The notes under the pieces were generated by a model that made no database searches, was not told the DNA's origin, and saw nothing but the letters and a program-made list of their open reading frames with translations. Position numbers and translations under genes: made by a program. From an uncultured Gammaproteobacteria bacterium (GTDB lineage Bacteria; Patescibacteriota; Patescibacteriia; UBA1558; S5-K13), in assembly GCA_964640635.1 (NCBI GenBank), contig CAZXFD010000003.1:65149-129148 (forward strand): 64,000 bases of DNA. The letters run 5' to 3'. Positions 1 to 34,135 of the stretch are shown one piece after another (within the stretch, counting starts at the first letter, position 1; every line of letters begins with the position of its first letter).

Positions 1-57
1 TAGTTACATAGCCAATTACTGTTTCAGCTAAATAGCTAAGCAACTACGAAGCTAATT

Positions 58-1455
58 TTATTCGTGAATCTTTTTTATAATAGAGTTTATGTCGTTTCTT
101 GTTTTTTCATCTTTTGCGATTAAGTCACAGACTTTGTTGTAAGCGTGTATTGCTGTTGTGTGATCACGGCCTCCTATTTCAGAGCCTATACTTGGATAAG
201 ATGCACTCAATTCTTTTCTAAGTAAATACATACATATTTGACGAGGACCAACTAATTCTTTTTTTCTACAATTTCCAGTTAGGTCATCAAAGTCTATTCC
301 ATAATAATCGCCAACGCATTTTATAATTTTCTTTGCACTAAGTCCGGTTTCTTTTTGTTTTGCTATTATTCCACTTAGAACTGTGTTTACAAATTCTACT
401 GATATAGGCTCACTACTTAGCTGATGAGTAGCTATAACTCTATTTAATATTCCTTCAAGTTCTCTTACACTACTTTTTGCTATATTTGCAATTGCAACAA
501 CAACTTCTTCAGAAATATTTAATTTCAAACCCTTTTCTTGTATTTTGCTATTTAAAATAGCCATTCTTGTTTCTAGATCAGGCATACCAATATCAGCAAT
601 CATTCCACTTTCAAAACGAGATGTAAGACGATCCTCTATTCCTGGTAATGATTTTGGTGGTCTATCAGAGCTAATTACTATTTGTTTGTTTTGTTGATAT
701 AGATGATTGAAGGTATGAAAGAATTCTTCTTGTGTTCTCTCTTGCCCTTTCATAAATTGGATATCATCTACTATTAATACATCAATATCACGATATTTTT
801 TCTTAAAACTTTCCATGTTTCCAGATTGGATTGACCGGACATAGTCATTGGTAAAATGTTCACTACTTACATAAGCGAGTTTTAATTCGGGAGAATTTTC
901 TTTTATATAGTTTGCTACAGATTGCATCAAATGAGTTTTTCCAAGACCTACATTTCCATATAAGAATAATGGGTTATAAACATGGCCAGGGTTCTTGGCA
1001 ACAGCGGTAGAGGCTGCTTTTGCGAGTTCGTTTTGTTTGCCCGTAATAAAATTTTCAAATTTATATTTTGGGTTTATTGATAAGTATCCATTTTCTGTTT
1101 TACTTTGTGTGCTTATATTTGTGCTAGAATGTTTTTCAGCCTCTAAATCATCATTATGTTTTTCTATTTGAGATGTTTTTTTTATGTTTTGTTCTTGAAT
1201 TTTTTCATGAGATATTTTGAATAGAAGTTTTTTTATGGAAGATCCTTTGAGTATATTATTTAATGCTTGTAATATTTCTTTGCTATATTTATTTTCTAAC
1301 CAACTTTTTGTAAATCCATTTTGAACAGCTATTATGACAGTGTCCTCGCCTACTTCTAAAATACTTGTGTTTTTAAACCAAGTTGTAAAACTAGCCTTTG
1401 AAATGTTTAGCTCTAATTCACCAAGAACAGCATGCCATAATTCTTGATTATCCAT
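58..1455 (-). CDS. dnaA: chromosomal replication initiator protein DnaA
   Basis: 465 aa ORF; AAA+ Walker A GNVGLGKTHL, Walker B IVDDIQF, C-terminal DnaA-box binding region; motifs read directly from translation. Confidence 0.9.
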   Translation of the reverse strand: MDNQELWHAVLGELELNISKASFTTWFKNTSILEVGEDTVIIAVQNGFTKSWLENKYSKEILQALNNILKGSSIKKLLFKISHEKIQEQNIKKTSQIEKHNDDLEAEKHSSTNISTQSKTENGYLSINPKYKFENFITGKQNELAKAASTAVAKNPGHVYNPLFLYGNVGLGKTHLMQSVANYIKENSPELKLAYVSSEHFTNDYVRSIQSGNMESFKKKYRDIDVLIVDDIQFMKGQERTQEEFFHTFNHLYQQNKQIVISSDRPPKSLPGIEDRLTSRFESGMIADIGMPDLETRMAILNSKIQEKGLKLNISEEVVVAIANIAKSSVRELEGILNRVIATHQLSSEPISVEFVNTVLSGIIAKQKETGLSAKKIIKCVGDYYGIDFDDLTGNCRKKELVGPRQICMYLLRKELSASYPSIGSEIGGRDHTTAIHAYNKVCDLIAKDEKTRNDINSIIKKIHE

Positions 1456-7927: not shown

Positions 7928-8191
7928 TTACTTTGTTATTACACAGCTCTTTGCAACTATGCCGTAGAGTTTGTTTAATATTTTTGTGAGATCATTTATT
8001 TGTTTTAATCCACCCTTTACAACTATTGTTATAATTCCTGAGCAATTTGATATGCAACGTGGCTCTATGTTTACGCCAAGCCTCGTAAGTATGATATGTC
8101 CATTTTCTGAAAGTGTTTTATTTAGTTTTTCGGAATTCACTTGTCTATTTGTAACCATTATTGTAATTGTTCCTAAATGTTGTTTTTGCAT
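7928..8191 (-). CDS. small ACT/ferredoxin-like-fold protein resembling the TM1266 putative-regulator family
   Basis: 87 aa; GHIILTRLGVNIEP ... GIITIVVKGG resembles TM1266-type proteins; weak. Confidence 0.35.
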   Translation of the reverse strand: MQKQHLGTITIMVTNRQVNSEKLNKTLSENGHIILTRLGVNIEPRCISNCSGIITIVVKGGLKQINDLTKILNKLYGIVAKSCVITK

Positions 8192-9603: not shown

Positions 9604-12141
9604 ATGTCAAATTATTCAAAAAGTTTATATTTTATTTTATTAATAATTTTCTTTTTTTCACTTTTGATATTTATAAATATTACTAGAGCTGAGGGAATAA
9701 TTTTTTCGGAAATAATGTATGATCCAGTAGGATCTGATTCTGGCAATGAATGGATAGAGCTTCTTAATAAAACAACAAGCAGTATATCTATTGGATCGGA
9801 TTGGAGATTAAGCGACTCATCAAATCACTTGATAAATTTTTATAATGGCCCAACAAGTGTTTGGCCAGGAAGTTTTTTTGTAATAACTCAAAATGCTTCA
9901 AATTTTTTAAATAATTACCCAAACTATACAAGTCTTTATAGGCCACTTTATGAATCTTCTTTTTCTTTGAATAATGCTTCTGGAACAATAAAATTATTTC
10001 AAGGTTCAAACTTAATAACAGAACAGGGATATACATCGGTAATTGGTGGAAATGGAAATGGAAAAGCATTAGAGAGAGTAACTCCTCAATTTAATGATAA
10101 TGTATGGACAGAAGGATGGGTAATTGGTGGAACCCCAGGAAGTCTTTCTAATACGCCACCGACTCTTTATGCACCAATTCCTATAATAAAAGTTTCTACT
10201 ACAACAATTTACGTGGGGAATAGTCTATTATTTGATGCGAGTTCTTCAACCGATCAAAATGGAGATACTCTAAATTATCTTTGGAATATTGGAAATATTG
10301 CAAGTTCAACAGATCAAATTTTTACATATTGTTTTCTAAATTCTGGGACATATAACGTATCTCTTACTGTTTCAGACGCTACTTCATCAAATACAGCAAA
10401 CGTAACAATAAATGTTTTGGAAAATGACATAGAAATTCCCTTGATTAATTATACAGGGAAAATTATATTAAATGAGCTATTGCCTAATCCCGAAGGAGAC
10501 GATGATGGTGAATGGATAGAATTAAAAAATATATCAAGCGATGATATTGATCTAACAGATTTTTTAATTCAAGATGAGTCTGGAAGAGATTATCTCATAT
10601 CTCCAGATGATTTTTCTACAACAACAATAAAGGCAGGAGAATTTTTTGCAATTGACTACACTATTTCAAGAATCATCTTAAATAATACCGGAGACAAAGT
10701 TACTATTTTTGATAATAATGAAAACAAAATCTCAGAAATTTCTTATTCTAGTGTAAAAGAAGGACAATCTTTTGCTAGATTTACTAATTCTTGGAATTGG
10801 ACTACTAGTCCAACAAAAGGCTTAGAAAATGTTTTGACAGAAAGCACACAAGAATCTAGTTCCGTTACAATTATTAATAATACTACAAACAATACGAGTG
10901 ATATCACAAAGCAAGATGATATTATCTGTGATTTAAATAGTTTAAATAAAAGCATTGTTATCTCTGAAATTTTTCCAAATCCAGTAGGTGATGATACCAA
11001 AGAATTTATAGAAATTTATAATCCAAATGATTATGATATAAATATTAGCAATTGGAAAATAAAAGATTTGTCGTCGTCATTTTTTAAATTAACGGGCTTG
11101 ATAAAGTCAAAATCATATTTTCTTATATCAAGAGAAGATTCCAAACTCGCTCTCAATAATTCTAAAGAAGAGATTTTTATTTATGATTGTAAGGATGTTT
11201 TAATAACAAATTTAAAATATGACAAGTCATACGAGAATCAGTCATATTCTTATAACTTATTAAACAAAGAATATTTTTGGACAAAAAACACGACACCAGG
11301 AGAAGAAAATATTTTTGATATTAAAGAAGATGTGGACAGTAAAGAAATAGCCACCTCGACTATTATAGAAGAACTTTATAAAGACGAAGAAGAAGCAATG
11401 CAAGAATATTCAAGTGTATTTTTTAATGAGCTTTCCCAAAATGAAACTGTTATTGGATACGGAGCTATTGTTTTGACTCAGAATAAAATTTCAAATAACT
11501 CAGCGTATATTTGTAACTATAAATTACAAGAAAAAATTGTTGATTATTATGATTGTATAAATTTATATTTCAATGGAAAGTGGCCAGCTATTAAAAGAGG
11601 TTCAATTATAAAGTTCAGCGGAAAGTTTTCACAAAGCGCAAGTTCTAAAAAAATCAAAATTTCAAAAAAAGAAAATATTGAAGTTGTAGATTCTGTAAAA
11701 TTATTGAGTCCGGATGAAATTTTAATTAGTAACATAGATGAAGGATTACTAGGATCTTTTATTTCTATAAAAGGAAAAATTTCTAAGTTAAATCAAAAAA
11801 GTTTCAATATTAAACTTGATGAAGAGGAATTTAAAATAAAAATTGTCACAAAGGATATAGACTTAAAAAGTTTTATTAAAGAAGAAAATGTTTTCGTAAG
11901 TGGGATAGTTTTGAAAGAAAAAGATTCTTTTATTTTGGCACTTGGCAACAAGAGCGATCTCATTAAAGATTTACAGGTAGAAGAAAATATAGATATCTTG
12001 GGAGAGAAAATAGAGAGCAAAGAAACTATTAATCTAGTTGAAGATAAAGAAAGCTTTTTTATAAAAATAGTTTCTAATATAGGAAAATTTTTTGGCTCAA
12101 TTAGAAGTAGTTTTGTGAATAAACTTTTCGCATCTAAATAA
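9604..12141 (+). CDS. large secreted/surface protein with three lamin-tail-domain (LTD) repeats and a PKD-like domain
   Basis: 845 aa; N-terminal signal/TM; LTD signatures FSEIMYDPVGSDSGNEWIELLN, LNELLPNPEGDDDGEWIELKN, ISEIFPNPVGDDTKEFIEIYN; PKD-like YLWNIGNIASSTDQIFTYCFLNSGTYNVSLTV. Confidence 0.8.
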   Translation: MSNYSKSLYFILLIIFFFSLLIFINITRAEGIIFSEIMYDPVGSDSGNEWIELLNKTTSSISIGSDWRLSDSSNHLINFYNGPTSVWPGSFFVITQNASNFLNNYPNYTSLYRPLYESSFSLNNASGTIKLFQGSNLITEQGYTSVIGGNGNGKALERVTPQFNDNVWTEGWVIGGTPGSLSNTPPTLYAPIPIIKVSTTTIYVGNSLLFDASSSTDQNGDTLNYLWNIGNIASSTDQIFTYCFLNSGTYNVSLTVSDATSSNTANVTINVLENDIEIPLINYTGKIILNELLPNPEGDDDGEWIELKNISSDDIDLTDFLIQDESGRDYLISPDDFSTTTIKAGEFFAIDYTISRIILNNTGDKVTIFDNNENKISEISYSSVKEGQSFARFTNSWNWTTSPTKGLENVLTESTQESSSVTIINNTTNNTSDITKQDDIICDLNSLNKSIVISEIFPNPVGDDTKEFIEIYNPNDYDINISNWKIKDLSSSFFKLTGLIKSKSYFLISREDSKLALNNSKEEIFIYDCKDVLITNLKYDKSYENQSYSYNLLNKEYFWTKNTTPGEENIFDIKEDVDSKEIATSTIIEELYKDEEEAMQEYSSVFFNELSQNETVIGYGAIVLTQNKISNNSAYICNYKLQEKIVDYYDCINLYFNGKWPAIKRGSIIKFSGKFSQSASSKKIKISKKENIEVVDSVKLLSPDEILISNIDEGLLGSFISIKGKISKLNQKSFNIKLDEEEFKIKIVTKDIDLKSFIKEENVFVSGIVLKEKDSFILALGNKSDLIKDLQVEENIDILGEKIESKETINLVEDKESFFIKIVSNIGKFFGSIRSSFVNKLFASK

Positions 12142-14025: not shown

Positions 14026-14107
14026 AATGTTGTAATAAAGCTATAATTTTATTGACTATATAAAGTGTCTTTGTTAACATAAAAGATACATAAATTAGGA
14101 GGATGGT

Positions 14108-14533
14108 ATGTCAAGTATTATATTATTTGAAGAAGATGAGTGTTTGTCTTGTATTCAGGGTATATGCGTTGAAGAGGCTCCAGATAGATTGCCTGGCATT
14201 ATATATTTTAATTATTATCGTAGTTCAATTGGAGATATATGTAAATTTTCAGAAATACAAGAAAAGACTATTTTTGTGGCTAATTGGGAAATGGGTTTAA
14301 GATTTGATGAGAGTTATCGTCTTTATTCTATGCACAATAAAAGAGAAGATTTTTACCCTTTTGTACAAAATGTGCTTAGTAAAGAACCAAATTTTCTAAA
14401 ATTTTACCCAACAAACGCAATTGTTTTGAAAATTGGTATATTGTTGCATAAGGATATAATAATTCATGACGTTGGTAGTTGGTTAATAACAGATCACTTG
14501 TTGTTTTTTAAAGACAACATTTTCCCTATATAG
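14108..14533 (+). CDS. hypothetical protein (141 aa) downstream of palindromic operator copy 1
   Basis: strong RBS AGGAGG; no confident family. Confidence 0.55.
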   Translation: MSSIILFEEDECLSCIQGICVEEAPDRLPGIIYFNYYRSSIGDICKFSEIQEKTIFVANWEMGLRFDESYRLYSMHNKREDFYPFVQNVLSKEPNFLKFYPTNAIVLKIGILLHKDIIIHDVGSWLITDHLLFFKDNIFPI

Positions 14534-20928: not shown

Positions 20929-22083
20929 TCATTGATCTAATGCATCTAGAACTTTTTGAAAGATTTTTTTCATTCTTTCTGGATCCTCGATTTTCAATGC
21001 AAGCTTTTCGCACAGCTTCTTTACCCGTTCATTTTCAGAGCTTAGATTTTTTAGAATGACATCCTTCTTGCTTTCAAGTAGTCCTTTAGAAATTTTCAAT
21101 GCAAGCTTTTCACAAAGTTCAACAACATATTTATTCTCAGACCTTTGACAATCTATTAGATATTCCAAATACTCGATTAAATCTTTTTCATCTATTTTTA
21201 GTGCAAGTTCTTTGCATAGATTAGAAAGATGTTTGAACTTCAGATGAATGCTCTGAGCTTTTTGACAAGCGATTAGATATTTGAGTTCTTTTGCCAAATC
21301 TTCTGAGCATATTTTCATGGCAAGTTGTTTGCAGACAAATTGATCAAACCAATCACTACCGAAATTAATACTTGCTATAAGACTTGTTTGATCTTTTATT
21401 GGACCATCAAACCAATTAATTATTTGATATTCTCTATGGACTAAATTTTTCACAAAATATTTTAGATATTTTATTAACTTTTCTTTTGAAATCTTTGATA
21501 ACAATTCTTGAACAATGTCCCGAGTATCAGAGCTTATTATAGGGCCACATTTAGAGGCAATATCAAGAATATAATAAAAGTTTGTAATTACAATTTCTTC
21601 GCTTACCTTTAGAAGTAGTTTTCCATAAAGTGTATTTCTACTAAGATACCATTTTTTTGCGCTTTCTGATTGTTTTTCTAGAAGCCATTTAAAATGCTTT
21701 TCTATGTGTTGTGTTGGAATTTTTAAAGCAAGGTCTTGATAAAGAGTAGAATCATCATCAAAAACACTCCTATCAACAAGATATTCAAAATATGGAATAA
21801 GATCTCCTTCTGGAATTTTCATTGCCAATTCTTTACATAAGGCACTGTCTTTGCGAATGAAGCATTTTAAGTGACTTGCTAATGAACCGGCGTCAATCCT
21901 AAGGGCAATTTCTCTACAAAGATAAGCTATTTCTTTGTCATTTGAATTTTGATAACCAAGAATTTCTTCTAATAATGGTTCTACTTTGTCTTGAAATTTT
22001 TGACCATTAAGGCTGTTTAGTCCTTGTAAAAATTCCAAGTCTGTAAGTCCATTGGATCTGATGATTTGCCACAAGCTATTCAT
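20929..22083 (-). CDS. alpha-helical repeat protein (HEAT/ARM-like, about 35-aa repeats)
   Basis: recurring C(K/R)ELA(L/M)KI..xDLI.Y(L/F)EYL units seen at least five times. Confidence 0.55.
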   Translation of the reverse strand: MNSLWQIIRSNGLTDLEFLQGLNSLNGQKFQDKVEPLLEEILGYQNSNDKEIAYLCREIALRIDAGSLASHLKCFIRKDSALCKELAMKIPEGDLIPYFEYLVDRSVFDDDSTLYQDLALKIPTQHIEKHFKWLLEKQSESAKKWYLSRNTLYGKLLLKVSEEIVITNFYYILDIASKCGPIISSDTRDIVQELLSKISKEKLIKYLKYFVKNLVHREYQIINWFDGPIKDQTSLIASINFGSDWFDQFVCKQLAMKICSEDLAKELKYLIACQKAQSIHLKFKHLSNLCKELALKIDEKDLIEYLEYLIDCQRSENKYVVELCEKLALKISKGLLESKKDVILKNLSSENERVKKLCEKLALKIEDPERMKKIFQKVLDALDQ

Positions 22084-25293: not shown

Positions 25294-25902
25294 TTATTTT
25301 TTTGTAGTTTTCTTTTTTGCTACTTTTTTCTCAACAACCTTTTTCACAGTTTTTGGCTTAGCAACGGCCTTTTCTTTTTTTATAGAAACTTCTTTCTTTT
25401 TTGTTGCATCATTATTTTTTACTGGTGTTGGAGAAAAGTGTTTTAAGATCTCATCTAGTTTGTCATTTAGAATTTTGAATTGTTTATCAAATTGAGAGGC
25501 ATTGTTTGAACTACTCTTGGTATCTTTATTTCCACCCTCTTGTTTTTCAAAACACACTGAGCAATATACGGCTTTACCATTTGTTGGTCTAAATGGAACT
25601 TCGCAAGCTACTCCACAATCTGCACAAGTTGCTTTGAAGAATTCTCTATCCCCATTACCTTGTCTAGAAGATTTTCTAAAATCTGGTCTAGGAGATGATC
25701 CAGAGTTGTTTTTCTCTCTAAAACAATCACTACAGAAAATTGGCTTATCACTTGATGGTTTAAATGGAACCTCACAAGAAACTCCACATTTATCACAGAT
25801 TACTTTGTGCATTTCTTGTTGTTCTCTTCTATTGTCGCGATTATCAAATCTTCTTCCAGAGTCACGTCCTCTAGAATTGTTTCTTCCATTAAAATCTCTC
25901 AT
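25294..25902 (-). CDS. tandem zinc-ribbon protein with Arg/Gly-rich N-terminus and Lys-rich C-terminal tail (probable nucleic-acid binding)
   Basis: two copies of C-x2-CG-x-(S/A)CEVPF(K/R)P-x6-8-CSxCF; RGRDSGRRFDNRDNRR N-term; KKxVAKKKTTKK C-term. Confidence 0.55.
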   Translation of the reverse strand: MRDFNGRNNSRGRDSGRRFDNRDNRREQQEMHKVICDKCGVSCEVPFKPSSDKPIFCSDCFREKNNSGSSPRPDFRKSSRQGNGDREFFKATCADCGVACEVPFRPTNGKAVYCSVCFEKQEGGNKDTKSSSNNASQFDKQFKILNDKLDEILKHFSPTPVKNNDATKKKEVSIKKEKAVAKPKTVKKVVEKKVAKKKTTKK

Positions 25903-28249: not shown

Positions 28250-28401
28250 AATATCCTCCTTGGATACATTATTTTAGTATTTGACTTTCTAAATTTTTAG
28301 ATAATCATAGTATATTAGGATAATTATAAAATTTTGTCAATGTTAAAATTTAAATAAACAAAAAACTCTTTAAATAAAGAGTTTTTTGTTTATAAAGTAA
28401 T

Positions 28402-28534
28402 GTAAATTTAATGGGAGTCGTGTAGTAAGGGGCGTTAGAATAATAATTAAAAGGCAAGATGAGTATATTTATATTCCTGATTTAAAAATGTATGCTGATT
28501 TATAGTTTACCCTACTGTGCTACTCACTATATAT
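28402..28534 (+). repeat. direct repeat copy A (133 bp), 3 mismatches versus copy B; preceded by the palindromic terminator aactctttaaataaagagtt
   Basis: base-by-base comparison with 29565..29697. Confidence 0.65.
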
Positions 28535-28678
28535 TTTTAAAGCTCTTATTCCCACCCTTACATAACGGAGCTTTCTTGGTTGAGGACGTTAGAAGTATGA
28601 TTGTGGGCAATTGTTAAAAAATATAATAAAAAAGCGCGATCGTTTGTTCAACCGCGCTTATCAATGAAAGACTTAGGG

Positions 28679-29374
28679 TTATTTTGGAAAATAACCAAAG
28701 AAGAATCCGTGCTCCATAATGAAGTTATCGTTGTAGTGGTTTGGATTAGTACGAGTTAAATCGTCTTTAGTATAGGAATGAATATTGTGCCAGGATATCA
28801 AAATTTCTTTATCTAAAGTAATGATTGGATGAGAATAATCTATTCTATTATTATCCTCATACTCAATTACGGGTTCTTCAATTTTCACAAATCCACCATC
28901 ACTTTTAAGTATGTCTTGACCAGAATTAATATACTGACCAATAATAGCAAATAATTCTTGTGATAGATTTGGTCTCCACAAAAGCTCTTTACTTTTTTCC
29001 ATTGTGGCTTTTTTGGGTATCAATGCCCAACTTGCAATATGGTCACCAAAACCCCACAATGTTTTAATTTTCATTACTTCATTGAATGCTTTTACTCTAT
29101 ATTGAGGAAAGCCCTTCCAGTGAATTTTTATCCCAGCACCCTCTCCTTTGTCGATGATTGTTTGTAGGGTAAGTGGACAAAGGGCTGTCAAAATATGGGT
29201 ATTTTTGCATTCCTCGATCAGCTCTTTGGAGAATGGTATCTCGGATAATATGTTTAATTGTTTCTCATCAAACTTCATATTAAAAGCCTGCTGCACCTCT
29301 TCGATACCAAGAAAATTAGAATCCATAAGTTTTTTGGCATCATCATGTGAAAGTGTATCAATGTGTGATGGCAT
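28679..29374 (-). CDS. hypothetical protein (231 aa) bracketed by the 133-bp direct repeats
   Basis: clean ORF; hairpin terminator aagcgcgatcgtttgttcaaccgcgctt at about 28632..28662. Confidence 0.55.
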   Translation of the reverse strand: MPSHIDTLSHDDAKKLMDSNFLGIEEVQQAFNMKFDEKQLNILSEIPFSKELIEECKNTHILTALCPLTLQTIIDKGEGAGIKIHWKGFPQYRVKAFNEVMKIKTLWGFGDHIASWALIPKKATMEKSKELLWRPNLSQELFAIIGQYINSGQDILKSDGGFVKIEEPVIEYEDNNRIDYSHPIITLDKEILISWHNIHSYTKDDLTRTNPNHYNDNFIMEHGFFFGYFPK

Positions 29375-29564
29375 GATAGCCTCCTTTTATTTCATTTTTG
29401 TTAAAGTTGGATTTTAATTGATAATTATACTACTTAGCCTAATCTTTGTCAACTGTAGTTTAATTCCAATTATAAACATAACAAAAAAACCCTTTAAATA
29501 AAGAGTTATTTTGTTGTCCCTCGACTTCGCTTGGGATATTAAATTTCTATCGTATATAAAGTAC

Positions 29565-29697
29565 GTAAATTTAATGGGGGTCGTGTAGTAAGGGGCGTTA
29601 GAATAATAATTAAAAGGCAAGATGAGTATATTTATATTCCTGATTTAAAAATGTATGCTGATTTATAGTTTACCCTACCGTGCTACTTACTATATAT
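29565..29697 (+). repeat. direct repeat copy B (133 bp)
   Basis: gtaaatttaatgggGgtcgtgtagtaaggggcgttagaataataattaaaaggcaagatgagtatatttatattcctgatttaaaaatgtatgctgatttatagtttaccctacCgtgctactTactatatat. Confidence 0.65.
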
Positions 29698-29746
29698 AAA
29701 ACAAAATTATGCTTATCATTTTAAATGAATATGATAAAATAATTAT

Positions 29747-30538
29747 ATGATTATAGACAGTCATCTTCATATTTCAATAACTGATAAAAGTAAAACATTT
29801 GCAATGGCAAAAAAAGAGCTTTTGTCAGAAATGAAAAAAAACAAAGTGAATAAAGCAATTGTTATTCCTGATAACGTAAAGAATCCTTTTTGCGCAGATT
29901 TTAATACAGTATATAGACTCATTAAAAATGATTTCAGATTTTTAATCATAGCAACGCTTAAAATAGAATCGATTAATAAAAATAATATAAAAAAAATAGA
30001 AAAGCTATTTAAAAGCAAAAAAGCTGTCGGTTTTAAAATATTTCCTGGACACGATCCAATATACCCCACAGATAAGAGGTGGTTTCCTATTTATAAATTA
30101 TGTGAAAAATATAATGTGCCATTAATTATTCATACTGGCATAAATAGTAATAATAAAGCAGTTGCAAAATTCAATGATCCAAAACACATTATAAAAATTG
30201 CTAAAAAATTTAGTAATTTAAAGATAATAATTGCTCATTATTTTTGGCCAAAATTAGATTATTGCTTTAAAAAAACTAATGGATTTAATAATATATATTT
30301 TGATTTATCGGGACTCGCAGATGACGAGGTTGTTAAAGAAAGTGGTGGAATAAAAAAAATAAGACAAATCCTGATCAAAACTTTAAGGCGTAAGTTTGAT
30401 AGTCTTTTATTTGCAACTGATTGGCCAATGTGTGACATTGCAAAACACATCAAGCTAGTAAATTCGCTTCCGATATCCGAAAAAGAAAAGAACGATATTT
30501 TTTTTAAAAATACTCAAAAAATTTTTAAACTTAAATAA
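29747..30538 (+). CDS. amidohydrolase-family (TIM-barrel metal-dependent hydrolase) protein
   Basis: N-terminal MIIDSHLHI metal-binding motif and overall pattern. Confidence 0.6.
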   Translation: MIIDSHLHISITDKSKTFAMAKKELLSEMKKNKVNKAIVIPDNVKNPFCADFNTVYRLIKNDFRFLIIATLKIESINKNNIKKIEKLFKSKKAVGFKIFPGHDPIYPTDKRWFPIYKLCEKYNVPLIIHTGINSNNKAVAKFNDPKHIIKIAKKFSNLKIIIAHYFWPKLDYCFKKTNGFNNIYFDLSGLADDEVVKESGGIKKIRQILIKTLRRKFDSLLFATDWPMCDIAKHIKLVNSLPISEKEKNDIFFKNTQKIFKLK

Positions 30539-31301: not shown

Positions 31302-31424
31302 AAATCCTCCTTAGGATCTTAATATTATTTTTTGATTGATCTAACATCTTTAGATAATCTTATTATGATATCACAAATATATGAACTTGTCAAATATAGC
31401 TTGATTTTATTTATGAGTATAACA

Positions 31425-31451
31425 AAAAATCCCTTATTTAAAGGGATTTTT
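31425..31451. terminator. hairpin terminator adjacent to the tRNA-His 3' end
   Basis: aaaaatcccttatttaagggatttttt. Confidence 0.45.
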
Positions 31452-31853: not shown

Positions 31854-32111
31854 TTATTTAGTTTTTTTAAGTTTTTCAATGTGTCTTCTTATCCTTGTGT
31901 GGTTTATTGTTTGTCTGGGTGGGGTTATAACTTCTCCATTTTTATTACGTGGTTGTGGTATTTTGGCATCGAACTCATTTTCATATTCTAAATAGTCTGA
32001 ATCTTTATTAAATTCTTTCTCTAGACATTTTCCACATTTTCCATTTGCTGAAATAGGATTTTTGTGGCAAACTGAGCATAGATTTTCGAATTTAGGTATT
32101 TCTTCTAACAT
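31854..32111 (-). CDS. small zinc-ribbon protein (CxxH ... CxxC)
   Basis: 85 aa; CSVCHKNPISANGKCGKC. Confidence 0.4.
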   Translation of the reverse strand: MLEEIPKFENLCSVCHKNPISANGKCGKCLEKEFNKDSDYLEYENEFDAKIPQPRNKNGEVITPPRQTINHTRIRRHIEKLKKTK

Positions 32112-33756: not shown

Positions 33757-33936
33757 CTAATCTAGTATAAATTCATTTCTTTTCTTATTATCTCTTTGTG
33801 TGTGTATATCTGGCTTTGGAATGGGTTTTTTTTCTGGTATTTTTTCAAATTTATCTGTTTTTACATGTAGATTGTTTTCTCTTGCAATGCACTCATCACA
33901 AACCCCACAGTCACAGGGCATTTCAAACTTACTCAT
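33757..33936 (-). CDS. small Cys-rich protein (59 aa, CDCGVCDEC), not in ORF track
   Basis: manual translation MSKFEMPCDCGVCDECIARENNLHVKTDKFEKIPEKKPIPKPDIHTQRDNKKRNEFILD; no clear RBS. Confidence 0.3.
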   Translation of the reverse strand: MSKFEMPCDCGVCDECIARENNLHVKTDKFEKIPEKKPIPKPDIHTQRDNKKRNEFILD

Positions 33937-33937
33937 A

Positions 33938-34135
33938 TTATTTTCGTTTTAGTTTATTTAATTTATCAATTCCTCTATTTTGAAAGGGTTGATTTTTTAG
34001 GCCCGCGCTATGGACAACCATTTTATCATGTGTAATATCTTTTTTTTCATCCTCAAATTGTTCTTCATAGCAATCTTCACATAGCCCATCTAGAAATACA
34101 TTGTCCATTTGGCACTTTATGCACAAATCGTCCAT
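33938..34135 (-). CDS. small zinc-ribbon-like protein (CxxC ... CxxC)
   Basis: 65 aa; MDDLCIKCQMDNVFLDGLCEDCYEEQ. Confidence 0.35.
   Translation of the reverse strand: MDDLCIKCQMDNVFLDGLCEDCYEEQFEDEKKDITHDKMVVHSAGLKNQPFQNRGIDKLNKLKRK

What the first reader, a model, noticed from the sequence alone, without database searches (positions are those of the whole stretch)
28340..29700. Near-identical 133-bp direct repeats (3 mismatches) bracketing a single unknown gene
Sequences 28402..28534 and 29565..29697 differ at only 3 positions. Both copies are preceded by the same palindromic terminator-like element, ctttaaataaagag. Copy B carries an extra roughly 40-bp insertion between that element and the repeat. 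The repeats flank one gene of unknown function (28679..29374, minus strand). Such high identity in an otherwise unique, AT-rich genome implies a recent duplication, a recombination-prone cassette boundary (attL/attR-like), or a duplicated sRNA gene. The repeat has no coding potential. A receiver-like gene and an amidohydrolase gene sit just outside the repeats.
Basis: seen in the sequence. Interest (0 to 1): 0.6.

Follow-up and report, generated by a model that had tools for sequence, protein, structure and literature searches.

The report
Duplicated conserved micro-gene module flanking an orphan gene
The two near-identical repeats are real, and they are copies of a widespread, unannotated ~150-bp module carrying a conserved ~25-35-codon mini-gene, which in many uncultured bacteria also occurs as direct repeats around accessory and defence genes.

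Summary
28402-28534 and 29565-29697 differ at 3 positions. Similarity extends left to 28388/29552, and copy B has a 40-bp insert after its hairpin.

The repeat's + strand carries an open frame, ...VRIIIKRQDEYIYIPDLKMYADL*. A profile of it found 78 tiny predicted proteins (24-72 aa) in many metagenomes and MAGs.

Across 13 DNA copies from 9 loci (GC 0.29-0.51), that frame has no stops and pN/pS is 0.24. The other five frames have 4-29 stops. No consensus RNA structure covers all copies, and there is no Rfam, Pfam, NCBIfam or PHROG match.

Six of nine loci hold at least two copies, always in direct orientation. They bracket 1-13 genes, mostly on the opposite strand, often toxin-antitoxin, restriction-modification or PARIS-like genes. 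No recombinase is nearby.

Copy pairs elsewhere are 59-79% identical. The window pair is 99%, so it reflects a recent duplication or gene conversion. A third, decayed copy lies at 28574-28610.

Both window copies lack an in-frame start codon (GTG has become GTA), so they may not be translated. The peptide's function is unknown. An antisense, type I toxin-antitoxin-like arrangement or a cassette-boundary role remain open.

The parts
28312..28340 (-). Promoter P1 of the 125-aa gene (TTGACA-17-TAATAT)
   Evidence: 10 of 12 consensus positions; sequence
28354..28393 (.). Hairpin T1: perfect 19-bp-arm palindrome with an A-run and a T-run, a bidirectional terminator-like element directly upstream of copy A
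   Evidence: (I14)
28388..28534 (+). Repeat copy A (R_A): 5' block, micro-ORF and 3' block (TTTACCCTACTGTGCTACTCACTATAT)
28401..28505 (+). Open frame in R_A: CKFNGSRVVRGVRIIIKRQDEYIYIPDLKMYADL*. It is homologous to the conserved micro-ORF family. It has no in-frame ATG/GTG/TTG; the family's usual GTG is GTA here.
28574..28610 (+). Probable relic of a third copy (GAGGACGTTAGAAGTATGATTGTGGGCAA). It keeps CGTTAGAA, 13 nt, then GGCAA, and is cut off by the terminator of the 231-aa gene.
   Evidence: nhmmer E=0.84, weak; 20 of 32 ungapped matches to R_A counted by hand from the sequence (not a tool result)
28632..28659 (-). GC-rich intrinsic terminator of the 231-aa gene
28679..29374 (-). 231-aa gene of unknown function between the repeats. 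It has no close homologue and about 330 remote ones. The N-terminal alpha/beta domain is modelled with confidence; there is no PDB match.
29424..29452 (-). Promoter P2 of the 231-aa gene (TTGACA-17-TATAAT, 12 of 12)
29478..29511 (.). Hairpin T2, 88% identical to T1. It pairs better on the minus strand (my base-by-base reading: U.G wobble versus C-A mismatch).
   Evidence: (D2); strand comparison read from the sequence
29512..29551 (.). About 40 bp present only in copy B, between the hairpin and the repeat
29552..29697 (+). Repeat copy B (R_B). Its open frame is 29543-29668: ISIVYKVRKFNGGRVVRGVRIIIKRQDEYIYIPDLKMYADL*.
29713..29740 (+). Promoter of the amidohydrolase gene (TTATCA-16-TAAAAT with TG). 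It lies between R_B and the ATG at 29747, and its -10 region and the start of the gene are conserved in relative L007, which has no repeat.
29750..29777 (-). Promoter-like site (TTGAAA-16-TATAAT, 11 of 12) pointing into the antisense strand of R_B. A transcript from it would end at T2.
   Evidence: consensus match only

Best explanation
R_A and R_B are two paralogous copies of a conserved intergenic module of about 150 bp.

The module consists of:
- usually a terminator hairpin;
- a 5' block (TGGCTCCGCAYCGTG in most members);
- a micro-ORF whose core is V-R-T-I-I-Q-R-Q-N-E-Y-I-Y-I-P-D-L;
- in a subset, a 3' block (TTACCCyAC...GCTACTCACTAT).

The module is widespread in Patescibacteria-like and other uncultured bacteria. 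Its + strand frame evolves as a translated gene under purifying selection.

Modules tend to occur as two or more direct copies interleaved with accessory genes, mostly on the opposite strand.

In this genome the two copies, and to a lesser degree their hairpins, were recently duplicated or homogenised by gene conversion. That is why they are 98-99% identical, while copies elsewhere are 59-79% identical.

Shown: family membership, the coding signature, the direct-repeat arrangement, the exceptional identity, and the absence of a canonical start in both window copies.

Inferred:
- The 147-bp direct repeats can recombine homologously and loop out the 1,163-bp unit with the 231-aa gene.
- The window copies are weakly translated or not translated at all (GTG to GTA, TAA upstream).
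- The peptide, predicted as a helix followed by an extended EYIYIPDL strand, acts as a small binding or regulatory peptide. Its expression may be opposed by convergent or antisense transcription from the neighbouring cassette gene.
For: Family evidence:
- A metagenome scan found L013, with two R-like copies in direct orientation.
- A profile of the translated frame found 78 proteins of 24-72 aa sharing the core VDNVRTIIQRQNEYIYIPDL with unrelated N-termini.
- nhmmer finds copies in L014 (2), L019 (2), L021 (1 plus 1 decayed), L027, L028, L029 (2), L030, L013 (2) and the window (2). All pairs are direct.

Coding signature:
- Variable sites by codon position 1/2/3 are 7/6/11. EYIYIPDL varies only synonymously (TAY, ATH, CCN, GAY, TTR).
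- Nei-Gojobori on 13 copies gives frame 0 with 0 stops, pS 0.564, pN 0.134 and a ratio of 0.24. The other five frames have 4-29 stops and ratios of 0.45-1.45.
- GTG sits exactly 3 codons before the core V in 8 of 14 copies, and some database members have ATG there.

The element is not a known RNA or protein family.

Pair identities are 99/100 in the window, against 79, 59, 60 and 60/86 elsewhere.

A hairpin lies directly upstream of the module in the window (both copies), L028, L030, L014_b and L029_b.

The closest relative (81% amino-acid identity in the amidohydrolase) has no repeat upstream of that gene, so R_B is not a conserved leader.
Against: - Neither window copy has an in-frame ATG, GTG or TTG.
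- By my reading of the sequences (no motif scan was run), no Shine-Dalgarno-like sequence precedes the micro-ORF in the copies examined. No convincing + strand promoter was found in the window, whereas minus-strand promoter-like sites and terminators flank both copies.
- Three of 14 copies carry a 19-20-nt GC hairpin insertion that shifts the 5' block into another frame. That block is therefore conserved at nucleotide level.
- GAGTATATT is invariant even in a locus of 51% GC, which implies an extra nucleotide-level constraint.
- A subset of copies supports a weak two-helix structure on the minus strand: 86.5% of cells paired against 44-57% when slid, and 22 of 500 shuffles reach the observed covariation score.
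- The AF2 model of the peptide has only moderate confidence (pLDDT 67.5).
- Copy number elsewhere in this genome could not be checked.
- Recent duplication cannot be separated from gene conversion with the data in hand.
Confidence: 0.6

Rival explanations
1. The module is a sense/antisense unit that works like a type I toxin-antitoxin repeat (E. coli LDR or QUAD/Sib-Ibs repeats; own knowledge). The + strand would encode a small peptide. The minus strand would give an RNA, from its own promoter or as the 3' UTR of the neighbouring gene, that ends at the hairpin terminator and represses the peptide mRNA. The window copies would be inactivated toxin genes.
For: - The micro-ORF is conserved.
- Copies occur as direct intergenic repeats near mobile or defence genes.
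- Minus-strand promoter-like sites (29777->29750, 11 of 12; 28651->28623, 9 of 12) and terminators (T2, T1) flank both window copies.
- In most loci the neighbouring genes converge on the module, and its antisense lies between their stop codon and a hairpin.
- A weak minus-strand two-helix structure shows some compensatory changes.
Against: - The peptide is polar and charged with no membrane segment, unlike nearly all type I toxins (sequences; toxin properties from own knowledge).
- No consensus RNA structure covers all copies.
- The 3' block needed for the minus-strand helices is missing in about half of the copies.
- There is no experimental evidence of toxicity or of either transcript.
- Promoter matches are only consensus hits in AT-rich DNA: 17 were found against 10.2 +/- 2.9 expected.
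Confidence: 0.15
2. R is the boundary or recombination site of a gene-cassette system (integron-like, or attL/attR of inserted cassettes). The 231-aa gene would be a cassette that can be excised and exchanged by a recombinase encoded elsewhere.
For: - Six of nine loci have two or more copies, all in direct orientation. They bracket 1-13 genes that are often orphans, toxin-antitoxin, restriction-modification or PARIS-like.
- Several contigs end shortly to the right of a copy.
- Partial copies lie next to full ones (window 28574-28610; L019 upstream).
- The element occurs in genomes of 29-51% GC, and a 25-nt non-coding block is nearly identical between the window and L013.
- Logan unitigs are equally compatible with an excised circle plus an empty site.
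Against: - No integrase, resolvase or transposase domain appears in the gene tables of 8 loci within +/-10 kb.
- There is no attC-like palindrome or RYYYAAC/GTTRRRY pair.
- The cassette gene has its own 12/12 promoter and its own terminator.
- In L014 both copies are full-length with a GTG start, long diverged (79% identity), and the pooled coding constraint covers them. That is not expected of att scars.
- The element is absent from 2.9 million viral contigs and from the phage records.
- No strain with different content between the copies was found.
Confidence: 0.13
3. R is a non-coding cis-regulatory RNA or sRNA gene that was duplicated: a leader of the amidohydrolase gene, or a 3' UTR element.
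For: - Copy A's + strand can form a long closing stem with G.U pairs (-27.9 kcal/mol against -13.6 for the minus strand).
- By my mapping of the three A/B differences onto that fold, two keep pairing as G.U.
- R_B lies upstream of the amidohydrolase gene on the same strand.
Against: - Folding energies are within the range of shuffles (z = -0.7 to +1.1).
- The closing stem is absent in L013 and in the other members.
- The amidohydrolase has its own promoter between R_B and the ATG, and the closest relative lacks R.
- There is no Rfam hit.
- The conservation pattern is codon-like.
Confidence: 0.06
4. R is a miniature transposable element (MITE) that inserted twice, or the duplication is an assembly artefact.
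For: - Repeat boundaries are sharp and sit in TA-rich sequence.
- The ends show a weak inverted similarity (TAAAGTAA / TATAGTGA; reading).
Against: - No clear terminal inverted repeats or target-site duplications are visible.
- There are only two copies plus one relic in 64 kb.
- Family members share an ORF, not ends.
- All four junctions carry copy-specific SNPs in independent assemblies.
Confidence: 0.04

Closest known systems
Repeated type I toxin-antitoxin modules of E. coli (LDR repeats with ldr/rdl; QUAD repeats with ibs/sib). Comparison from my own knowledge, not tested by homology.
   Same: Intergenic direct repeats of roughly 130-500 bp, present in several copies. Each carries a very small conserved ORF, with possible transcription of the opposite strand ending at an intrinsic terminator.
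   Different: There is no sequence similarity. The peptide here is polar (helix plus EYIYIPDL strand), not a hydrophobic membrane toxin. The antisense RNA is only predicted. The copies are separated by unrelated genes rather than sitting in tandem.
Integron gene-cassette arrays and CALIN clusters (attC sites between cassettes). Own knowledge.
   Same: A similar element of about 100-150 bp recurs in one orientation between single genes or small groups of genes. Many of those genes are orphans or defence/toxin-antitoxin genes.
   Different: There is no attC palindrome, no R''/R' core sites and no integrase. The cassette gene has its own promoter and terminator. The element is itself protein-coding and under purifying selection.
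attL/attR duplications created by integration into the 3' end of a small gene or tRNA. Own knowledge.
   Same: Direct repeats flank inserted DNA, and one partial copy lies next to a full one.
   Different: The copies are complete modules, including the start region in other genomes. They are old and diverged there. No recombinase lies nearby.
Paralogous small-RNA genes (for example PrrF1/PrrF2, Qrr). Own knowledge.
   Same: Near-identical short intergenic duplicates, each next to a terminator.
   Different: No conserved secondary structure was found, and the substitution pattern is codon-like.

Membership tests
Integron attC / gene cassette | Imperfect palindrome (R''-L''...L'-R') that folds into a hairpin | tested here: not met
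   No consensus structure appears on either strand for 9 copies. With the 3' block included, only 6 pairs form on the + strand and a weak 16-pair non-hairpin structure on the - strand.
Integron attC / gene cassette | Inverse core RYYYAAC at one end and core GTTRRRY at the other | tested here: not met
   Only GTTAGAA(C/T) is conserved, and it lies inside the ORF near the 5' side. There is no complementary partner at the other end (alignments).
Integron attC / gene cassette | Integron integrase nearby (or a CALIN cluster), and promoterless cassettes | tested here: not met
   No Phage_integrase hit appears in any locus table. Eight of the window ORFs listed were scanned against Pfam with no such hit. 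The 231-aa gene has a 12/12 promoter.
Diversity-generating retroelement TR/VR pair | Differences confined to adenines of the template repeat; VR inside the 3' end of a target gene; reverse transcriptase nearby | tested here: not met
   The differences are A>G, T>C and C>T. Both copies are intergenic. No RT domain was found among the proteins scanned or in the locus tables.
Type I toxin-antitoxin repeat module | Small conserved ORF | tested here: met
   78 homologues; pN/pS 0.24 with no stops.
Type I toxin-antitoxin repeat module | Toxin is a small hydrophobic membrane peptide | tested here: not met
   The core VDNVRTIIQRQNEYIYIPDLREYANA is polar and charged. AF2 gives a helix plus an extended strand.
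Type I toxin-antitoxin repeat module | Antisense RNA overlapping the toxin mRNA | tested here: inconclusive
   There are promoter-like and terminator-like sites on the minus strand and a weak minus-strand structure in 6 copies. No expression data exist.
MITE / small mobile repeat | Terminal inverted repeats, target-site duplication, many dispersed copies | tested here: inconclusive
   No clear TIR or TSD is visible at 28388/28534 or 29552/29697. There are 2 copies plus a relic in 64 kb. The rest of the genome was not available.
Any Rfam RNA family | Covariance-model match | tested here: not met
   No hit on the repeat at gathering score or at E<=10 in the window. No relevant hit in L013 or L018.
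Micro-ORF module family defined here (core VRTIIQRQNEYIYIPDL) | Homology of the translated + frame and of the DNA core | tested here: met
   nhmmer E = 1e-16 for both window copies. The window peptide is the lead sequence of the alignment whose profile found 78 members.
Micro-ORF module family defined here (core VRTIIQRQNEYIYIPDL) | Translatable ORF with a start codon (GTG or ATG 3 codons before the core V, or further upstream) | tested here: not met
   Window copies have GTA at that position and no in-frame ATG, GTG or TTG after the upstream stop.

The most novel reading that the evidence does not exclude
The module marks a previously unrecognised way of organising accessory and defence genes in Patescibacteria and other uncultured bacteria. 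Each cassette would carry, or be bounded by, a conserved micro-gene whose copies serve as portable homology or recognition sites for cassette gain, loss and exchange. The encoded 25-35-aa peptide, or its antisense RNA, would take part in that process or in controlling the cassette. This would be an integrase-independent analogue of an integron array.
Probability: 0.12. Interest if true: 0.85.

Novelty: new variant of a known kind. Interest (0 to 1): 0.55.

Why it matters
The repeat would be the local trace of a conserved micro-protein gene family of about 25-35 aa. That family is invisible to current annotation: it has no Pfam, NCBIfam, PHROG or Rfam entry, and the sources that name it call it only 'hypothetical protein'.

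The family recurs next to toxin-antitoxin, restriction-modification and PARIS-like genes in genomes of candidate-phyla-radiation type. It gives a concrete, searchable marker for variable gene regions in these poorly understood bacteria.

It also offers a testable case of a very small protein under strong purifying selection, and possibly a sense/antisense regulatory unit.

For this genome in particular, the 147-bp direct repeats predict an unstable 1.16-kb segment. That prediction can be checked directly in the public reads.

Tried and rejected
1. Known RNA families. Rfam at gathering and E-value thresholds on the window and on L013/L018 gave nothing relevant.

2. RNA structure.
- Single-sequence folds are no better than shuffles.
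- RNAalifold on 9 copies gave zero pairs on both strands.
- With the 3' block included, only a weak minus-strand structure appeared.

3. Riboswitch or leader of the amidohydrolase gene. Rejected because the gene has its own conserved promoter and probably a leaderless start (my inference from the promoter position). Its closest relative has a 55-aa ORF plus a terminator in place of the repeat.

4. Collection scans.
- The 19-mer scan of 185,579 species genomes gave only a chance hit (L006).
- Four scans of viral contigs gave chance hits or nothing.
- The phage blastn gave nothing.

5. Homology of the peptide to known proteins.
- The SpoVG hit at E=0.11 applies to the window peptide only.
- 13 of 74 members give weak KH_Mug60 hits (best E 0.018).
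- PDB hits are chance matches to G-alpha helices.
- All were rejected as insignificant.

6. A conserved partner gene. All-against-all blastp of 30 neighbouring proteins from 7 loci gave no hits.

7. Reverse-strand coding. The frame that shares wobble positions has a universal TAA and 16 stops.

8. tmRNA-like tag or a translational bypass of the 20-nt hairpin insertion. Considered and dropped. ARAGORN finds no tmRNA, and take-off and landing codons do not match in L021.

10. Strain variation at one locus (L030-L035). None was found.

11. Literature search for the peptide and DNA motifs. No paper was found.
Full report
**1. The observation**

The repeat exists as described. The repeat finder reports 28402-28534 and 29565-29697 as a 133-nt pair at 98% identity, 1163 bp apart. 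The pairwise alignment places the three differences at 28416 A/G, 28516 T/C and 28525 C/T. It extends the similarity leftwards to about 28388/29552 with one 1-nt indel. It also confirms the hairpin containing ctttaaataaagag before both copies, and about 40 extra bases in copy B between hairpin and repeat.

A 50-mer of the repeat occurs twice in the window, against none in 100 shuffles. No further full copy exists in the 64 kb.

The 231-aa ORF 28679..29374 (-) lies between the copies. It has a perfect TTGACA-17-TATAAT promoter (29452->29424) and its own GC-rich terminator (28659->28632).

Logan assemblies of several SRA runs are 100% identical to the window and carry the copy-specific SNPs at all four junctions. 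They break inside the 93-bp identical core, so they cannot distinguish the integrated arrangement from an empty site plus a circle.

**2. Ruling out a known RNA or a leader**

Rfam gives nothing on the repeat. Copy A's + strand can draw a long closing stem, but the energy is within the range of shuffles. Copy B's minimum-free-energy fold is different.

The organism is a Patescibacteria bacterium near Candidatus Buchananbacteria, judged from homologues of the amidohydrolase. In the closest relative (81% amino-acid identity) the region upstream of the amidohydrolase holds a 55-aa ORF and a terminator, not the repeat. The TGnTAAAAT promoter just before the ATG is conserved there. R_B is therefore not a conserved leader of that gene.

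**3. The lead from other sequences**

A 19-mer scan of species-representative genomes and several viral scans gave only chance hits.

A 20-mer from the right end hit one JGI contig, L013 (1529 bp, 44% GC). It holds two R-like copies in direct orientation about 756 bp apart, flanking a small ORF.

Comparing these copies with the window showed conserved blocks whose differences fall mostly on third codon positions of one + strand frame: VRIIIKRQDEYIYIPDL in the window against VRTIIRRQTEYIYIPDL in L013.

A profile of that peptide found 78 predicted proteins of 24-72 aa from JGI, ENA, Logan and NCBI assemblies, including a Candidatus Wildermuthbacteria MAG. They share (W)L(R)IV(D/N)NVRTIIQRQNEYIYIPDL(R)xYANA and have unrelated N-terminal extensions. 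None is longer than 72 aa.

**4. Anatomy of the family**

I fetched contigs for seven members and scanned them with an nhmmer profile (scans).

| Locus | Copies | Genes between the copies, or beside a single copy |
|---|---|---|
| L014 | 2 (10102-10187, 11597-11677) | one 431-aa Amidohydro_2 gene between them |
| L019 | 2 (10045-10129, 14044-14125) | RelE/Phd-like pair, PARIS-like AriAB ATPase, two unknowns |
| L029 | 2 (8013-8089, 10099-10171) | five small genes between them; type I RM beyond the right-hand copy |
| L021 | 1 plus 1 decayed, 9 kb away | 13 genes |
| L027, L028, L030 | 1 each | L028 is next to a type III restriction enzyme |

All six multi-copy loci, counting the window and L013, have the copies in direct orientation.

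In seven of nine loci the flanking genes lie on the opposite strand. The exceptions are the amidohydrolase to the right of R_B and both neighbours in L013.

No integrase, resolvase or transposase domain appears in any of the gene tables. The neighbours share no homology with each other. Locus GC content ranges from 0.29 to 0.51.

A hairpin with flanking A and T runs sits directly upstream of the module in the window (T1, T2), L028, L030, L014_b and L029_b.

A second conserved block follows the stop codon (TTACCCyAC...GCTACTCACTAT). It is shared by the window, L013_1, L014_b, L030 and L021_b, but not by the other copies.

**5. Coding or not**

Over the 17 core codons in 9 copies, variable sites by codon position are 7/6/11. 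EYIYIPDL changes only synonymously.

A Nei-Gojobori count over 13 copies gives, for the + frame, no stop codons, pS 0.564, pN 0.134 and a ratio of 0.24. The other five frames contain 4-29 stops and have ratios of 0.45-1.45. The reverse frame that shares wobble positions has a universal TAA.

RNAalifold predicts no pair on either strand for nine copies. I therefore read the core as a translated micro-ORF under purifying selection.

A GTG lies exactly three codons before the core V in 8 of 14 copies, and some database members have ATG there (MDEVRT...).

Several caveats apply:
- By my reading of the sequences (no motif scan was run), no Shine-Dalgarno-like sequence precedes the ORF in the copies I inspected.
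- The 5' block TGGCTCCGCAYCGTG keeps its sequence even when a 19-20-nt GC hairpin insertion (L013_2, L019_b, L021_a) puts it in another frame.
- GAGTATATT is invariant even at 51% GC.
- With the 3' block included, six copies support a weak two-helix structure on the minus strand only: 86.5% of cells paired against 44-57% when slid, and 22 of 500 shuffles reach the observed covariation score. That structure was derived from the same sequences.

Some nucleotide-level function, possibly an antisense transcript, therefore coexists with the coding constraint.

**6. The window copies in this light**

Both copies align in frame to the family (GS-RVV-RG-VRIII against WL-RIV-DN-VRTII). They have GTA where others have GTG, and no in-frame ATG, GTG or TTG after the upstream stop. 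They are either untranslated relics or use an unusual start.

They are 99/100 identical. Pairs in other genomes are 79% (L014), 59% (L019), 60% (L029) and 60/86 (L013).

Identity falls off away from the repeat. The hairpins are 88% alike. The promoter regions are roughly 65-75% alike by my estimate from the alignment.

This gradient fits a somewhat older duplication of a promoter-hairpin-module unit. A later gene conversion centred on the module, or a very recent duplication of the module alone, would explain the rest. I cannot separate these.

A third, truncated and decayed copy lies 40 nt to the right of R_A at 28574-28610. It keeps CGTTAGAA, 13 nt, then GGCAA; by my hand count 20 of 32 positions match R_A. 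The nhmmer E-value is only 0.84. If real, it shows that this spot has a history of rearrangement.

On established knowledge of RecA-dependent recombination, direct repeats of 147 bp at 98% identity are good substrates for deleting the 1,163-bp unit. This is inference, not shown here.

**7. How it may work**

What is shown: the module is a conserved micro-gene that tends to sit, in one orientation, between accessory genes that mostly run the other way, usually just upstream of a bidirectional terminator.

The AF2 model of the window peptide, built with a 74-sequence alignment, is of moderate confidence (pLDDT 67.5). It shows a helix over residues 6-18 followed by an extended EYIYIPDL segment. 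No library or PDB sequence search gave a significant match.

I commit to a small binding or regulatory peptide whose gene is subject to convergent or antisense transcription from the neighbouring cassette gene.

In the window, promoter-like sites on the minus strand (29777->29750, 11 of 12; 28651->28623, 9 of 12) and the hairpins T2 and T1 would frame antisense RNAs of about 240-260 nt across both copies. That length is my estimate from the promoter and terminator coordinates. The sites are consensus matches only.

From my own knowledge, this architecture resembles the repeated type I toxin-antitoxin modules of E. coli (LDR, QUAD/Sib-Ibs). The peptide is polar, however, so membership of that class fails on a defining feature.

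The integron-like reading fails on the attC structure, the core sites, the integrase and the promoterless cassettes. The recurrent copy-genes-copy pattern keeps a homology-driven cassette-exchange role alive at low probability.

**8. The gene between the repeats**

The 231-aa protein has no close homologue. It has about 330 remote ones that share residues ~7-80, some as far as ~158. It has no Pfam or PADLOC match.

Its N-terminal alpha/beta domain is modelled with confidence (pTM 0.72). Foldseek finds no PDB match. Its function remains unknown, and it is unrelated to genes bracketed by the module elsewhere.

**9. Verdict**

It misses the main point, which is that the repeat is a member of a widespread, unannotated micro-ORF module family.

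I found no description of it in Rfam, Pfam, NCBIfam, PHROGs, PADLOC, PDB sequences or the searchable literature.

I rate it as a new variant of a known kind (sORF-bearing intergenic repeats), of moderate interest. Interest would be higher if the cassette or antisense roles were demonstrated.

Noticed in passing
window 28253-28393, 29380-29511, 31304-31451: Three similar 'hairpin terminator plus TTGACA-17-TATAAT promoter plus 5' UTR' units (71-88% alike in parts) precede three minus-strand genes. The third follows tRNA-His and has no repeat next to it. They may be diverged duplicates or strongly constrained signals.
   Followed up: partly
L013 about 45-65 (- strand), L019 about 14065-14085, L021 about 10060-10080: Three copies of the module, from three contigs, carry a homologous 19-20-nt GC-rich hairpin (CCTGyCyGCC-loop-GGCrGG) inserted right after the second codon following the usual GTG. 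It breaks the frame from that start. The stem shows compensatory changes between contigs.
   Followed up: partly
L019 about 9990-10045: Upstream of copy L019_a is a 21-bp-arm inverted repeat (-25.8 kcal/mol). Its left arm begins with a duplicate of the module's 5' edge (TTCTGATTTATGGC). It may be the footprint of another rearranged copy.
   Followed up: no
window 29713-29749 and L007 about 7965-8003: The amidohydrolase gene has a conserved extended -10 promoter ending about 7 nt before its ATG, with no Shine-Dalgarno sequence. This suggests a leaderless mRNA in both genomes.
   Followed up: partly
window 31854-32111, 33757-33936, 33938-34135 (all -): Three small ORFs (85, 59 and 65 aa) each carry paired CxxC motifs near the N-terminus followed by a basic tail. 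They may be a paralogous zinc-ribbon mini-protein family.
   Followed up: no
window 25294-25902 (-): A 202-aa protein has two copies of a CxxC...CxxC zinc-ribbon unit (precomputed Pfam zf_Tbcl_2) and a lysine-rich tail.
   Followed up: no
window 20929-22083 (-): A 384-aa protein is built of many repeats containing the motif (C)(K/R)ELA(L/M)KI, a HEAT/ARM-like repeat protein. It was not scanned against any family library here.
   Followed up: no
L014 10227-11522 and window 29747-30538: An Amidohydro_2-family gene lies directly beside the module in two different Patescibacteria-like genomes, but the two proteins show no blastp similarity. This is probably coincidence.
   Followed up: partly
L027 7247-7426 and L029 14238-14441: In two loci a small HTH_17 (excisionase-like) gene lies about 4 kb to the right of the module. 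In L029 it is followed by a primase-containing block on the other strand, which hints at an adjacent integrated mobile element.
   Followed up: no
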